From NCBI RefSeq assembly GCF_009914755.1, contig NC_060931.1: 64,000 bases of DNA; one strand, written 5' to 3'. Below, piece after piece: positions 44,462 to 49,694 of this stretch (the stretch's first letter is position 1; each line of letters opens with the position of its first letter). Origin of the DNA: the human T2T-CHM13v2.0 reference genome, Homo sapiens. The translations under genes were made by a program, and so were the position numbers. The notes beneath the pieces are model-generated. The model was given only the letters and a program-made list of their open reading frames with translations, was not told the origin of the DNA and searched no databases.

Positions 44462-44697
44462 CCTATATTATAAATTATGCTGTGGATTAAATGAAATAAT
44501 CAATATAAAATGTTTATCAGTTGCCTGGCATATAATAGTGCCAAATTAGTGTTCACTCTCAGTGTCACCTTTCCAAATATGAACCTCTGGTTAAGACAGA
44601 GCGACATACCCACTATCTGTCAAATAATGCTTTGTACATTCTTTCTTTTTTGGTTTTATTTGTGGTTCTTGGTCTATCTGAAAATCTGATCCCCACC

Positions 44698-45049
44698 TTT
44701 TTTTTTTTTTTTGAGACAGGGTCTTGCTCTGTTGCCCAGGCTGGACTGCAGTGACTCCACCATAGCTCACTGCAGCCTCTTACTCTTGAGCTCAAGGGAT
44801 CCTTCTGTCTCAGCCTCCCAAGTAGCTAGAATTATAGGTGCATACCACTGTGACCATATATCTATATATCTATATCTATATATCTATATCTATATCTATA
44901 TCTATATCTATATCTATATCTATGTCTATATTAGAGTCAGTGTCTCACTTTGTTTCCCAGGCTGCTCTCGAACTCCTAGGCTCATGTGATCCTCCTGCCT
45001 TGGCTTCCTAAAGTGTTGGGATTATAGATGTGAGCCATCATGCCTGGCC
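44698..45049 (-). mobile_element. AluJ with (TATATC)n expansion in the central linker (~44856-44931)
   Basis: Both Alu arms in reverse, separated by a hexamer microsatellite. Confidence 0.93.
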
Positions 45050-45109
45050 TCTCTTTTTAAAGTCCAAATTATATTTAGACTTCATGAAACCTTTCTCTGA
45101 TTCCCACTC

Positions 45110-45237
45110 CAGTGGAACAGCTCTGTATGGAATGGTAGTGGTGAAAAGGTGTCCTCATACCATTGTCCAAACCTATAGAATGTACAACAAAAGGAGTGAG
45201 CCCCAGTGTTAACTGTGAGCTTTCGTTCACAATAATG
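45110..45237 (+). mobile_element. L1MC-type 3' end, left part (host of the retrocopy)
   Basis: ttgtccaaacctatagaatgtacaacaaaaggagtgagccccagtgttaactgtgagcttt...aataatg; continues collinearly at 48515. Confidence 0.8.
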
Positions 45238-45580
45238 CACTGCCTTTCCTCCACCCTCTCCTGTCCAGTGCGCCCGAGGGAGGTGGGTGTGGAGGAATTG
45301 GAGTTTTTGGTAGCATGCACTGCAGCACTGCTTCTAGCAAATGCTGACCCTCCTGCACTCTGGCTCTGGCCCTGGTGTCTCCACAGCAATCATTGCAGTG
45401 AAGTTCTAGAGTTCTGCACAGGAGAAGGAATAAGAGGACAGGAAGAAGAGAGAGGGTAGAATGGAAGACTCCCACTTAAATCCTAACTTGTATGTCTGGC
45501 CTTGCATCCCCACCATCTCAGGGCCAATTGAGAACACCATGCTTGTCAGCAGGATGGAGGCTGAGCCCTCACCAGCTGTG

Positions 45581-45899
45581 GCCTCTTTTTTTTAAGGAAA
45601 AAAAAAGAGAGATAAAAATGCTGTGTCCAGAGGACAGGGTGGAGGAAAAAAAGGACAAAAATAAATAAAACATCAAATATGAAGATTCTCAGAGATAATG
45701 CATTTATAAACACAGAAACAGTTACAACAAAGACAGCCATGATGAGTGGGTATATACATATGTATACATGTATATGTGCAAATCCTTGTCCAGCAACCAA
45801 CCAAGGCATCTAGGGAGCTAAGGCCAGTCTTTGCATTTGCCCTGAAGGCTCCCTTCTCCACAGCACCCCTCGTTTTGGGGTTTCATGAAGAACATAAAG
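45581..45899 (-). repeat. Inverted copy of the retrocopy's distal 3'UTR inserted in its CDS (inverted-repeat arm A)
   Basis: Reverse complement aligns to 48042-48354 at ~92%; ORF track 45546+ mirrors 48141+ and 45673- mirrors 48080+. Confidence 0.97.
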
Positions 45900-48041
45900 C
45901 TCCATCTCTCCATTCTGCCCTGCTGGGAGCACCTGCCCCTGGGCCCTGGGTCCTGGACCCCTCCCTGCCCTCGGGATGGGTGTGGATGGAGGCCAAGTCA
46001 GAGCAGCTTAGCCCACGCATCCTGGTGGTCCCCATGCTGTTCACGGGGCTGACCCCTGCCAGTCCAGTCCCCTCAGGCTTTCTTGGGGCTACAGCCTGAT
46101 CGGCTCTGAACCTCCCCATCTGGCTTCCCATGATTGTCTTTGCTCCTCCCTCTGCCTCACAAGTCCTGCAGGTGGTTCGTGACCTCTCCAAGAAGATGGT
46201 GTTGGCCTAACGAGAGGGAGGTAGAAGGTGATGGAAGTGGCAGTGTGGTTTCTAATCTCCCATCCCCCACCCCAACCCCTGCCCACACAGAGGGCCAAAA
46301 GAAGCAGCAATGCTGGAATCAGGGTTGCCTGAGATAAATGAACCTTAGGCCCTCTTCCCTACGGAGAATGATGACCATCAGAAAGATGGAATGACTTACG
46401 AGAGTGAAGGGAACTGTGGCAAAAGGAAATGGACAGAGCCTTGGGTTCCTGGATTCAGATCTCAGCTCTATCACGAACTTATTATATGACCATGGGTGTA
46501 CCCTGCTTTATACAATAAGAGGGCTTCTGGAAAATGTTGACATCATATTATAAAGGTGCCAATGTGCTCACTAACATCCTACTGGAAGTTAGAGATGCTG
46601 ATGTGCTCCAAGCCCCACACCAAGGTAAGCCCCACAGGTCCCACATTCCTCCAAGACCTTTGCCAACAGCTGCTACCCCTCCAGTACCTCTGTATTCACT
46701 CAGGGCCAAGCCCTACCACTGCTCCAACTGCCAGGGGGCTTCCCACCTCCAGCAGCACACACAGATCCAGGCCAGGGATGGTCCATGTGCATGTGCCCCC
46801 GGGATGTGAGAAGGCCTTCACATACCCTCTAGCTCACTGCCTCACACACAGCAGCACAGCAGACACTAGCCCTCCAAGTGCCACAGCTATCATCCAGCAT
46901 GCATGGATGTGGCCTCATAGAGGGGCACCTGTCTACCTGTCTATGCTACAGTGAAGCACACCAAGGAGGACACCCAACTCTCTGCAGTTGGGCCTGTCCG
47001 TCTGAAACATCCCTTAGGAAACACAGGCACAAACACAGCCCTCCTGATCTCCAGCAGCATGGGCAGGTGGCAGTGACAGCAGCGGTGGCTCAGGCCCAGG
47101 TCCAGGCCTCCCAGACATAGCAGTAGCAGCCTTAGCCACCACCCATCCAGTCCCCTGCAGTATCCTCCCAGGATAGGGACAGCAATCAACCTTCCATCCC
47201 AGAGTCCCTTGACTTGACTCCCAGCAAGGTAGAGGGGCATCATAAGGACATCTGTTTCACTGTCACCACCGGCATCCTCCAGATGAGCACCTGGCCAGCT
47301 GCTCGTTGCTGGAAAGAGGAGAAAGAAGTTCTAGTCTCTTCTTTCTCCAGCATCTCTTGCTGGGAAAAGTCCTCTCCCTCCTTGACAGGTGCTGGCTCCA
47401 TCCTTGGGCTTGAGGCATGGTCTTCCTTTAAAGGGTTCCAGCCTCATCCTCATTCTCTACCCTTCTCCAAAAGGAACATCAGCCCTCCTGGCTGGCCCAG
47501 GAGCACCGGGATGGTGGTGTCATCGAGCAACCTCCCTGCCCAAGCAAAGCTTTAAAATTGGGGCTTGGTGCTCCAGGGAGGAATTTGCTGTGACTTCATA
47601 GAAAAGTCAAGTGTTAGCACTGACCCCCTACCCCCTCTTCCTCAAGGTTTGGGCCTATGGAGGACTAGCGGCTGGCCTTCCCCGATATCAGACAGAAGGA
47701 AACCCTAATGCAGCCAGCTTCCTCTTCTGCTCTTGCCTACAAAAGAACAGAGGTTTCTCATGTGCCCCAACCCCGGGACCCATTTTCTTCCCCTCACAAT
47801 CTCCCCTTACTTCCTACCTGCTCTGGAAGAAGGAGATTTGGGTGGGGAATAGATCTCCTTTTTATCTGTAAAGGGACAAGGGCTATGATATGGTTCCCAA
47901 GGGGCCAAGATTCCCAGGGTGGTCAAGGGTGTCTTAGAAGTGTGGGTTATGGTTTTCCTTGGATCCTCCCTCTCCCTTTTCTGCCAGCCAAGACCTTCTC
48001 ATCTCAATATCCCCCGCCCAGCCCCCAAGGAGCTGAGGGAG

Positions 48042-48354
48042 TTTTATGTACTCCATGAAACCCCAGAAAAGGGGCTGCTGTGGAGAAGGGAGCCTTCAGG
48101 ACAAATACAAAGACTGGCCTTAGCTCCCTAGATGCCATAGTTGGTTGCTGGGCAAGGATTTCTACATATATATGTGTACATATGTATATACCCACTCATC
48201 ATGGCTGTCTTTGTTGTAACCATTTCTGTGTTTATAAATGCATTATCTCTGAGAATCTTCATATTTGATGTTTTATTTATTTTTGTCTTTTTTTCTCCAC
48301 CCTGTCCTCTAGACACAGCATTTTTATTTCTCTTTTTTCCCTTAAAAAAAAGGC
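48042..48354 (+). repeat. Inverted-repeat arm B (native 3'UTR position)
   Basis: Partner of 45581-45899. Confidence 0.97.
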
Positions 48355-48514
48355 AGATTTCAGAGAACAGCCCAAATGAAAAAAAAAAGCAAAAAAAAAA
48401 AAGCAAGAAACCAGTTGTTATAAGGCAATTTAAAAATGAAGGGAAAGAATTTACACACAAACCGAGGGGTGATTTTAGAATATCGTATGGAAATAAATTT
48501 GTGCAGAAGAAAAA

Positions 48515-48680
48515 TGTATAGTATATCAATTTTGCCTCATCAATCGTAACAAATATACCACACCAGTGCAAGATGTTAATAATAGGATGGACAAGGAGGG
48601 GTATATGGAAGCTGTCTGTACTTTTCACTCAATTTTTCTGTAAACCTAAAACTGCTCTAAAAAACAACGTCGATTAAAAA
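48515..48680 (+). mobile_element. L1MC-type 3' end, right part
   Basis: tatcaat...catcaatcgtaacaaatataccacaccagtgcaagatgttaataatagg...ttttctgtaaacctaaaactgctctaaaaa. Confidence 0.85.
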
Positions 48681-48858
48681 CAAAGATCTGACTTGTCTCC
48701 ATGTGAGCTCCTCCAAGGCAGGGATTATTTTTACTCATTTCTTTATCTTCAGCCTGAGGCTGGTCTGGCTTGAGGATACATAAAGGACACCCTTCATCAC
48801 ATCATGTTGTGAATTCTTCTACTGTCTTTTAATCCTACAGTCAAGAGACAACGTAGTG

Positions 48859-49459
<601 letters not shown>

Positions 49460-49694
49460 AGCTTTATTTCTTTATTGCCAATTGACTTATCGAAGGAACA
49501 AGTTCTTGATAAAATATTATAAAAACAAAGAAGAGGTGATTGCTTTCTTGACCAAAAAGTGTGGCCAGAATTGGAAAGAAGGTCAGATTATTTTGTGATG
49601 AGGATAGACATAGAGAGCATCTTCAGATATGTTATTGCCTATAACATGGACTAAGCTCTGCAAATGGTAGCTGAATCTGAAATACTGTTGCATA

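What the first reader, a model, noticed from the sequence alone, without database searches (positions are those of the whole stretch)
45581..48354. ZNF384 retrocopy with an inverted copy of its own 3'UTR: a built-in long-hairpin (dsRNA) pseudogene
Seen: 45581-45899 is the reverse complement of 48042-48354 (~315 bp, ~24 differences by hand, ~92%). This includes 109/111 identity over 48177-48287 and a 65-bp perfect run, with a ~2.1-kb spacer holding most of the decayed CDS. A transcript from either strand would fold into a long stem whose sequence is the ZNF384 distal 3'UTR. Established: inverted-repeat pseudogenes can give endo-siRNAs against the parent gene (the Rangap1 pseudogene Au76 in mouse oocytes), and long non-Alu stems are ADAR/Dicer/PKR substrates. 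Inference: this could be an undescribed hairpin-RNA locus acting in trans on ZNF384. Whether it is transcribed cannot be seen from the sequence.
Basis: partly seen in the sequence, partly recalled or inferred. Interest (0 to 1): 0.85.

Follow-up and report, generated by a model that had tools for sequence, protein, structure and literature searches.

The report
Old ZNF384 pseudogene with self-copied inverted arm
An ancient, dead retrocopy of the ZNF384 gene later had about 313 bases of its own tail copied backwards into its front end, so it could fold into a long RNA hairpin if transcribed, but nothing here suggests that it is transcribed or does anything.

Summary
Arms 45584-45906 and 48035-48352 are reverse complements: 298 matches, 18 mismatches and 8 gap columns (92%), with a 65-nt perfect run and 109/111 identity in the core.

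The host is a full-length ZNF384 processed pseudogene, about 45240-48514. RefSeq annotates only 47119-48509. It is about 76% identical to the chr12 parent and is riddled with stops.

A three-way alignment shows 38 substitutions and 16 gap columns shared by both arms against the parent, versus 13 and 14 arm-private changes. The inverted arm was therefore copied from the pseudogene itself, long after retroposition. That rules out twin priming and a second retrocopy.

The insert sits cleanly inside exon-3 coding sequence. There is no target-site duplication and at most 2 nt of target change, and short microhomology is possible at both junctions. This fits a DNA template-switch (MMBIR-like) insertion.

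If transcribed, either strand folds into the stem, and perfect 21-mers against ZNF384 exist. But no transcript is annotated, CpGs are strongly depleted, and endo-siRNAs were reported undetectable in non-mouse mammalian oocytes (PMC10964541).

One loose end remains: the 111-nt core has evolved about 3 times slower than the rest of the pseudogene. Verdict: a real structure that is most likely a neutral relic.

The parts
45240..48514 (+). Full extent of the ZNF384 processed pseudogene (retrocopy); RefSeq LOC100533635 covers only 47119-48509
   Evidence: Exon-by-exon collinear matches to chr12 without introns. Both flanks are a dispersed repeat that is contiguous in other genomic copies.
45353..45454 (+). 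5'UTR homology to parent exon 1; 45240-45352 has no detectable parent match
   Evidence: Local alignment to chr12 locus L013, 72% identity. BLAST hit 45401-45454 at 83%.
45455..45583 (+). Parent exon 2 (ATG at 45461) and the first part of exon 3, up to the insertion point
   Evidence: The frame from the ATG hits its first stop at 45593, inside the insert.
45584..45906 (-). L arm: inverted copy of retrocopy 3'UTR segment 48035-48352, inserted into exon-3 coding sequence. The last ~8 nt (45898-45906) are ambiguous between insert and target.
   Evidence: It is 82% identical to the parent but 92% identical to the R arm.
45898..47303 (+). Rest of the decayed coding sequence (exon 3b to the position of the parent stop codon)
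   Evidence: There are 11-13 stops in each of the three frames.
47304..48509 (+). 3'UTR of the retrocopy, ending 12 nt after the AATAAA at 48492-48497
48035..48352 (+). R arm: the in-place 3'UTR segment that served as template for the L arm
   Evidence: It is collinear with the parent 3'UTR. It shares 38 derived substitutions with the L arm.
48177..48287 (+). Slow-evolving core of the arms (partner 45654-45764)
   Evidence: 8 of 111 differences to the parent versus 27.7 expected. 109/111 identity between the arms. 49-nt perfect run with the parent.
48510..48519 (+). A5 remnant of the poly(A) tail (48510-48514), overlapping the imperfect 3' target-site duplication at 48511-48519 (partner 45232-45240)
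   Evidence: Sequence read. In another copy of the flanking repeat the two flanks overlap by 6 nt (L019).

Best explanation
This is a neutral structural relic made in two steps. Step 1: a full-length ZNF384 mRNA, a long isoform, was retroposed into an old dispersed repeat and decayed to about 76% identity with the parent. Step 2 came much later, in roughly the last 20-40% of the retrocopy's lifetime. A 313-bp stretch of the retrocopy's own 3'UTR, lying 2.1-2.7 kb away, was copied in inverted orientation into exon-3 coding sequence. The copying was a DNA-level template switch: replication or break-repair synthesis left the template at short microhomology, copied the opposite strand nearby, and returned to the same point (MMBIR/FoSTeS-like templated insertion). 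The two arms have since drifted to 92% identity. The locus can form a ~315-bp imperfect stem with a 2.1-kb loop if an RNA spans it, but it is most likely silent and without function. What is shown: the structure, the order of events and the clean junctions. What is inferred: the polymerase template-switch mechanism and the lack of function.
For: Retrocopy status:
- Collinear intronless matches to 8 parent exon blocks on chr12.
- Stops in all frames.
- The flanking repeat is contiguous in other copies.

Order of events:
- In 305 ungapped columns of the three-way alignment, 38 substitutions and 16 gap columns are shared by both arms against the parent. Only 13 are L-private and 14 R-private.
- P(X>=38 | 13.5) = 3.6e-8.
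- Arm-to-parent K2P is 0.20, versus 0.06-0.10 between the arms.
- Outside the core, the arms are as diverged from the parent (19-24%) as the rest of the 3'UTR.

DNA-level copy from a nearby template:
- The parent reads continuously across the insertion point, so at most 2 nt of target were lost or gained, and there is no target-site duplication.
- The target has no T-rich L1 nick site.
- Possible microhomology is GCC(T) at the outer junction and 5-8 nt (CTCC.TC / AGCTCC) at the inner junction.
- The outer junction lies at an A8/T8 tract.
- Published MMBIR signatures are inverted copies of nearby templates flanked by microhomology (PMC8421209, passages).

No sign of activity:
- The supplied RefSeq table has no transcript here.
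- CpG o/e is 0.03-0.22, and none of the 500-nt windows in the 64 kb is CpG-island-like.
- No Rfam family reaches its gathering score in 44500-49500.
- G:U-compatible mismatches show no strand bias, 6 versus 8, with 4 transversions.
Against: - The microhomologies are short and blurred by later mutation, so plain end-joining of a captured fragment cannot be told apart from polymerase template switching.
- Described human templated insertions are mostly tens of bp with templates within about 100 bp (PMC8421209 search settings). A 313-bp copy from more than 2 kb away is at the large end.
- The 111-nt core is anomalously conserved. It has 8 differences to the parent versus 27.7 expected (P = 1e-5), or P = 5e-4 against the 18.8% coding-region average. 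P rises to 0.066 if the parent lineage carries half of the outside divergence. Between the arms the core has 2/111 differences versus 16/205 outside (Fisher p = 0.039). A purely neutral account does not predict this.
- Absence of transcription is not shown, only not annotated.
Confidence: 0.75

Rival explanations
1. RNA-mediated self-insertion. A transcript of the pseudogene, or a fragment of one, was reverse-transcribed from the internal A8 tract. The cDNA was then captured at a double-strand break in the pseudogene's own 5' part, as an endonuclease-independent L1-type insertion.
For: In its own sense, the insert ends exactly at an A8 run (48345-48352), as expected for internal priming on an A-rich tract. 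Lack of a target-site duplication and a non-canonical target are features I recall for endonuclease-independent insertions; that recollection was not checked in a paper here. The insert carries the pseudogene's derived changes, so the template was the pseudogene and not ZNF384 mRNA.
Against: It needs the pseudogene to be transcribed in the germline, and the cDNA to land by chance within 2.5 kb of its own source out of 3.1 Gb. A DNA template switch explains the proximity directly. No untemplated poly(A) is present. Microhomology is possible at both junctions.
Confidence: 0.1
2. The inverted arm arose during the original retroposition, by a reverse-transcriptase template jump onto the nascent cDNA (twin-priming-like). 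It looks young only because gene conversion between the arms has kept them alike.
For: Inverted repeats 2 kb apart can convert each other (general knowledge, not tested). The near-identical 136-nt middle stretch, with 2 mismatches, could be a conversion tract.
Against: - The shared derived changes (38 substitutions and 16 gap columns) are spread along the whole arm, not in one tract.
- Private changes are balanced, 13 versus 14.
- No sub-stretch shows the ~35-40% arm-to-arm divergence expected for unconverted ancient copies.
- Classical twin priming puts a non-duplicated inverted segment at the 5' end of the insertion. Here a duplicated segment sits inside otherwise collinear sequence.
Confidence: 0.05
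3. One reading: the locus is a transcribed hairpin-RNA gene. Its stem gives siRNAs, or acts as an ADAR/PKR/MDA5 substrate, and acts in trans on ZNF384 through the conserved 3'UTR core.
For: - The stem is predicted to form on either strand, with arm duplex about -508 and -511 kcal/mol.
- There are 16 perfect antisense and 29 perfect sense 21-mers against the parent.
- The best-pairing core is also the part that stayed closest to ZNF384 and to the other arm. Target-matched selection would predict this.
- Precedents exist. Mouse Au76/Rangap1 is described in a review passage (PMC6223193). The human psiPPM1K pseudogene has inverted repeats and reported esiRNAs (PMC3616710, abstract and passages).
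Against: - No annotated transcript; strong CpG depletion and no CpG island.
- No strand bias in wobble-compatible changes.
- 8% mismatches plus bulges.
- Endo-siRNAs were reported as mouse-specific among the oocytes of 12 species profiled (PMC10964541).
- Core conservation has cheaper explanations: no change on the parent side in a conserved element, arm-to-arm conversion, or chance. P is only 0.066 under the generous null.
Confidence: 0.05

Closest known systems
Inverted-repeat (hairpin) pseudogenes that feed endo-siRNAs: mouse oocyte Au76/Rangap1 and human psiPPM1K
   Same: A retro-derived pseudogene carries an internal inverted duplication able to fold into a hairpin, with stretches perfectly matching the parent mRNA (PMC3616710; PMC6223193).
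   Different: No evidence of transcription or small RNAs here. The arms are 3'UTR only, 92% paired, with a 2.1-kb loop. The host species is reported to lack detectable oocyte endo-siRNAs (PMC10964541).
MMBIR / FoSTeS templated inverted insertions (template-switch mutations)
   Same: An inverted copy of a nearby template is inserted without loss of target sequence, short microhomology is possible at both junctions, and a junction lies at a poly(dA:dT) tract (PMC8421209; PMC7954356).
   Different: At 313 bp, copied from 2.1-2.7 kb away, it is larger and more distant than the short-range events those papers catalogue. It is an ancient fixed event, so the junctions are blurred.
L1 twin-priming 5' inversions in L1 and processed-pseudogene insertions (recalled, not read here)
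   Same: A retro-inserted sequence contains an inverted portion of the same RNA.
   Different: Twin priming acts at insertion time and inverts, rather than duplicates, the 5' segment. Here the segment is duplicated, internal, and shares 38 post-retroposition substitutions with its template.
Genome-wide predicted non-repetitive dsRNAs (dsRNAscan catalogue, PMC11838218)
   Same: An inverted repeat within a 10-kb span, made of non-transposon sequence, with more than 70% pairing. It would qualify as one of the sparse (~2 per Mb) non-repetitive predicted dsRNAs.
   Different: It falls below that paper's 'long, highly paired' class (>300 bp and >96% paired). Whether this locus is in their tables could not be checked, because bioRxiv supplements are closed.

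Membership tests
Processed pseudogene (retrocopy) of ZNF384 | Parent exons present in order, without introns | tested here: met
   Exon 1, exon 2, exon 3 and at least 5 further exon blocks plus the 3'UTR of the chr12 gene map collinearly to 45353-48509.
Processed pseudogene (retrocopy) of ZNF384 | Poly(A) tail and target-site duplication at the ends | tested here: inconclusive
   Only an A5 remnant is left (48510-48514). A ~6-9 nt imperfect duplication is present (45232-45240 / 48511-48519). The flanks overlap by 6 nt in another copy of the host repeat.
Processed pseudogene (retrocopy) of ZNF384 | Disabled reading frame | tested here: met
   The first stop is at codon 45, inside the insert. 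There are 11-13 stops in each frame of 45898-47130.
Hairpin-RNA / endo-siRNA pseudogene locus | Inverted duplication able to form a long intramolecular stem | tested here: met
   300 of 304 (+ strand) and 297 of 302 (- strand) L-arm pairs go to the R arm in the MFE fold of 45238-48514.
Hairpin-RNA / endo-siRNA pseudogene locus | Perfect complementarity of at least 21 nt to the parent mRNA | tested here: met
   The L arm gives 16 perfect antisense 21-mers (runs of 34 and 22 nt) and the R arm gives 29 sense 21-mers.
Hairpin-RNA / endo-siRNA pseudogene locus | One transcript spanning both arms | not testable with these tools
   No expression data are available. The supplied RefSeq table gives no exons. 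There is no CpG island in the window.
Hairpin-RNA / endo-siRNA pseudogene locus | Dicer-dependent 21-23-nt reads from the arms, and an effect on the parent | not testable with these tools
   No small-RNA data are available. The literature reports endo-siRNAs undetectable in non-mouse mammalian oocytes (PMC10964541).
L1 twin-priming inversion | The inverted segment is formed at insertion time, from sequence not otherwise present in the insert | tested here: not met
   The segment is a duplicate of 48035-48352 and shares 38 substitutions and 16 gap columns with it against the parent. It lies inside collinear coding sequence.
MMBIR-type templated insertion | Insert is an inverted copy of a nearby template in cis | tested here: met
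   The template lies 2.1-2.7 kb downstream in the same retrocopy. Only 3 copies of the core exist in the genome: the two arms and the parent.
MMBIR-type templated insertion | Microhomology at both junctions | tested here: inconclusive
   GCC(T) at the outer junction and 5-8 nt at the inner junction are compatible, but imperfect after later mutation. An empty-site ortholog is needed.

The most novel reading that the evidence does not exclude
The inverted insertion created a primate-specific hairpin-RNA gene. Its 111-nt core (48177-48287 / 45654-45764) has been held by selection. The core is close to the conserved ZNF384 3'UTR element, with 8/111 differences where 21-28 are expected. It is also close to its partner arm, with 2/111 differences. 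On this reading, dsRNA or small RNAs from it act on ZNF384 in some tissue.
Probability: 0.04. Interest if true: 0.75.

Novelty: new member of a known kind. Interest (0 to 1): 0.25.

Why it matters
As it stands, the finding matters modestly, in four ways.
- It more than doubles the real extent of an annotated pseudogene.
- It gives a clean, datable example of how a hairpin-capable locus can arise from a dead retrocopy by a DNA template switch rather than by retrotransposition.
- It predicts a presence/absence pattern across primates that would expose the exact junctions.
- If the slow-evolving core turned out to be constrained, this would be a rare non-Alu, non-rodent candidate for a pseudogene hairpin acting on its parent. 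The present evidence makes that unlikely.

Tried and rejected
- **Twin priming or a second independent ZNF384 retrocopy as the source of the L arm:** rejected by the shared derived changes.
- **A MIR-like insert at 46400-46600:** I suspected this by eye. It is rejected, because the stretch matches two further chr12 ZNF384 exon blocks at 82% and 80%.
- **Low mutability of AT-rich sequence as the cause of core conservation:** rejected. Parent A/T and G/C sites outside the core differ equally, 25.2% versus 24.5%. Neighbouring AT-rich windows are 19-24% diverged.
- **Selection for pairing on one strand:** not supported. G:U-compatible mismatches are 6 versus 8.
- **A known RNA family in the hairpin:** none. 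Of the 11 matches in 44500-49500 with E up to 1, none reaches its gathering score. The best matches are SRP/Alu-type hits outside the retrocopy.
- **Confirming the host repeat as L1 through ORF2 domains:** 0 Pfam families in the 7 upstream stop-to-stop frames I chose out of the 38 listed. 'L1 3' end' therefore stays a recollection.
- **Literature search on ZNF384 + pseudogene:** 48 papers hold both words and 15 were listed. None of the 15 titles concerns a ZNF384 pseudogene. The one I opened mentions ZNF384 only as a motif.
Full report
**1.
- The repeat finder on 44500-49500 finds an inverted pair 45647-45906 / 48035-48294 (260 nt, 92% complementary, 2128 nt apart). Two weaker extensions reach out to 45585 / 48352.
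- A gapped local alignment gives 298 matches, 18 mismatches and 8 gap columns over 45585-45906 versus 48035-48352 (92.0%). It contains a 65-nt perfect run and 109/111 identity for 48177-48287.
- In a search of the whole assembly, the arm pair scores E = 1.5e-123.

**2. What the host sequence is.**
- Searching the window's own genome with 47119-48514 finds three places: itself, chr12:6676846-6678273 on the minus strand (76% identity over 1381 nt), and the L arm (91%).
- Searching with 45200-47130 finds 11 places:
  - itself;
  - the R arm;
  - the parent 3'UTR, matched by the L arm at 82%;
  - seven further blocks on chr12 between 6.6827 and 6.6986 Mb, in order and on one strand, at 73-83% identity;
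  - one weaker hit on chr1, which I recall is where the paralogue ZNF362 lies (not checked).
- Translations of the chr12 blocks are open zinc-finger coding exons.
- The retrocopy therefore runs as follows:
  - exon-1 5'UTR, with homology detectable from 45353;
  - the ATG at 45461;
  - coding sequence to the position of the parent stop codon, about 47303;
  - the 3'UTR to 48509, 12 nt past an AATAAA;
  - an A5 remnant after that.
- It includes two blocks (46402-46496 and 46495-46560) that match chr12:6687520-6687613 and 6687136-6687206, so it derives from a long isoform.
- The frame from the ATG stops at codon 45, and every frame of 45898-47130 has 11-13 stops.
- RefSeq's LOC100533635 (47119-48509) covers only the 3' 42% of it.

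**3. Boundaries.**
- The flanks 45060-45240 and 48505-48720 are dispersed repeats, with 216 and 1690 first-look candidates and 40 scored each.
- In other copies the two flanks are contiguous. In L029, 1400-1499 is followed by 1501-1639. In L019 the two matches overlap by 6 nt.
- So the retrocopy inserted into a pre-existing repeat at about 45240 / 48514, with a short imperfect target-site duplication.
- From memory the repeat looks like an L1 3' end. This was not confirmed: 0 Pfam hits in 7 upstream frames.

**4. Order of events.**
- A three-way alignment of parent, R arm and reverse-complemented L arm has 305 ungapped columns in the arm. They break down as follows:

| Column type | Count |
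|---|---|
| Identical in all three | 239 |
| L = R, different from parent | 38 |
| L-private | 13 |
| R-private | 14 |
| All three different | 1 |

- In addition, 16 gap columns are shared by L and R, and 3 gap columns are of other kinds.
- If the L arm had come from ZNF384 mRNA, as a second retrocopy or by a template jump at insertion, the shared class would contain only parent-lineage changes. It should then be no larger than a private class. Instead it is about three times larger (P = 3.6e-8).
- Outside the core, the arms are as far from the parent (19-24%) as the rest of the 3'UTR.
- The L arm was therefore copied from the already decayed retrocopy.
- Coding-region divergence averages 18.8% (133 of 706 sites, from the 4 of 7 exon blocks whose parent frame was unambiguous). 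It is 23.5% at second codon positions, where the parent should hardly change. Most of the 24.5% UTR divergence therefore lies on the pseudogene branch.
- This puts the duplication in roughly the last 20-40% of the retrocopy's lifetime.
- With recalled primate neutral rates, an arm-to-arm divergence of 5.7% to K2P 0.10 means very roughly 20-40 Myr. The retrocopy itself is on the order of 100 Myr old.
- These absolute dates are inference, not measurement.

**5. How the copy was made.**
- The parent exon 3 reads straight across the insertion point. The retrocopy's left flank ends on the bases aligned to ...GCTGTGGTCT. Its right flank resumes at the next parent bases, GGCCCCACCTC. So at most 2 nt of target were gained or lost, and there is no target-site duplication.
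- The target has no T-rich L1 nick motif.
- At the outer junction, target and template share GCC(T), next to the template's A8/T8 run.
- At the inner junction, 5-8 nt (CTCC.TC or AGCTCC) can be assigned to either target or template.
- The signature is thus an inverted copy of a template a few kb away in cis, a clean return to the departure point, and short junctional homology. This matches replication or repair template switching of the MMBIR/FoSTeS type (signature as described in PMC8421209, passages).
- A section heading of PMC7954356 reports enrichment of poly(dA:dT) around template-switch sites (outline only).
- At 313 bp and more than 2 kb, the event is larger and longer-range than the events those papers catalogue.
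- An RNA-mediated capture primed on the A8 run cannot be excluded. It requires transcription plus a chance landing next to its own source, so I give it about 0.1.

**6. Could it work as a hairpin?**
- Physically it could. The MFE fold of 45238-48514 pairs 300 of 304 paired L-arm bases with the R arm on the + strand (MFE -1407.6 kcal/mol). On the - strand the figure is 297 of 302 (MFE -1525.8 kcal/mol). The arm duplex alone is about -508 and -511 kcal/mol.
- The arms also still match ZNF384. The R arm has 49- and 17-nt perfect runs, and the L arm has 34-, 22- and 17-nt runs. A + strand transcript would therefore carry 16 perfect antisense 21-mers.

**7. Evidence against a working hairpin.**
- The supplied RefSeq table shows no exons or transcript.
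- CpG o/e is 0.03-0.22 across the retrocopy. No 500-nt window in all 64 kb reaches GC >= 0.5 with o/e >= 0.6. This is the pattern of long-methylated, promoter-less DNA.
- No Rfam family reaches its threshold. The only notable sub-threshold hits are SRP/Alu-type matches at 44711-45048 and 49177-49458, outside the retrocopy.
- The 18 mismatches show no bias toward G:U on either strand: 6 on +, 8 on -, and 4 transversions.
- The mouse precedent rests on an oocyte pathway. A 12-species survey reports that pathway as mouse-specific, with endo-siRNAs undetectable in the other 10 mammals (PMC10964541, abstract and passages).
- A human precedent for an inverted-repeat pseudogene with reported esiRNAs does exist (psiPPM1K, PMC3616710, abstract and passages). 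The idea is therefore not absurd, only unsupported here.
- Predicted non-repetitive dsRNAs are estimated at about 2 per Mb of the human genome (PMC11838218, passages). Such structures are uncommon but not exceptional. I could not see that paper's tables.

**8. One thing a neutral account does not explain well.**
- The core 48177-48287 has 8 differences to the parent in 111 aligned sites. The class-specific expectation from the rest of the 3'UTR is 27.7 (Poisson P = 1e-5).
- The next-lowest non-overlapping 111-column window has 20 differences.
- AT-richness is not the reason. A/T and G/C sites outside the core differ at 25.2% and 24.5%.
- If the parent lineage contributed half of the outside divergence and none in the core, P rises to 0.066.
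- Against the coding-region average of 18.8%, P is 5e-4. That is before correcting for the roughly 13-30 windows one could have picked.
- Between the arms, the core has 2/111 differences versus 16/205 outside (Fisher p = 0.039).
- Possible causes are chance plus parent-side conservation, an arm-to-arm conversion tract, a short ectopic conversion from chr12, or real constraint. Only cross-species data can decide.

**9. Verdict.**
- The structure is real, and its anatomy and history can be worked out in some detail.
- It is best filed as a new example of two known kinds: an inverted-repeat pseudogene, and a templated inverted insertion.
- A regulatory role is possible in principle but has no positive evidence, and I put it at about 5%.
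- Interest is low to moderate.

Noticed in passing
window 45240-47118: RefSeq's pseudogene LOC100533635 (47119-48509) omits the 5' 58% of the retrocopy: the 5'UTR, the ATG at 45461 and nearly all the coding exons.
   Followed up: yes
window 48177-48287 and 45654-45764: The core of the arms evolved about 3 times slower than the rest of the pseudogene, both against the parent (8/111 versus 27.7 expected) and between the arms (2/111 versus 16/205). The cause is unresolved.
   Followed up: partly
window 46402-46560: The retrocopy contains two blocks matching chr12:6687520-6687613 and 6687136-6687206 (82% and 80%), placed between the exon ending ...KTY and the first zinc-finger exon. So it was made from a long ZNF384 isoform. 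By eye the first block had looked MIR-like.
   Followed up: partly
window 45240-45352: About 113 nt lie between the host repeat and the first detectable exon-1 homology, and they match nothing in the parent locus at E <= 10. They may be an upstream or alternative 5'UTR, or too decayed to detect.
   Followed up: no
window 44711-45048 and 49177-49458: Two Alu-like elements, seen as sub-threshold SRP RNA hits on the minus strand, bracket the retrocopy in the same orientation. The sub-threshold mir-1268 and mir-3135 hits lie inside them. A (TATATC)n-like microsatellite splits the left one at 44834-44943.
   Followed up: no
retrocopy coding exons, window 46069-47100: Differences to the parent are lower at first codon positions (30/236, 12.7%) than at second (56/238, 23.5%) or third (47/232, 20.3%). 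This is an odd pattern for a long-dead pseudogene. It was computed on only 4 of 7 blocks.
   Followed up: no
window 45060-45239 and 48515-48720: The retrocopy interrupts an old dispersed repeat, 70-82% identical to other copies. I recall this as an L1 3' end. No ORF2-like domain was found in 7 upstream frames.
   Followed up: partly
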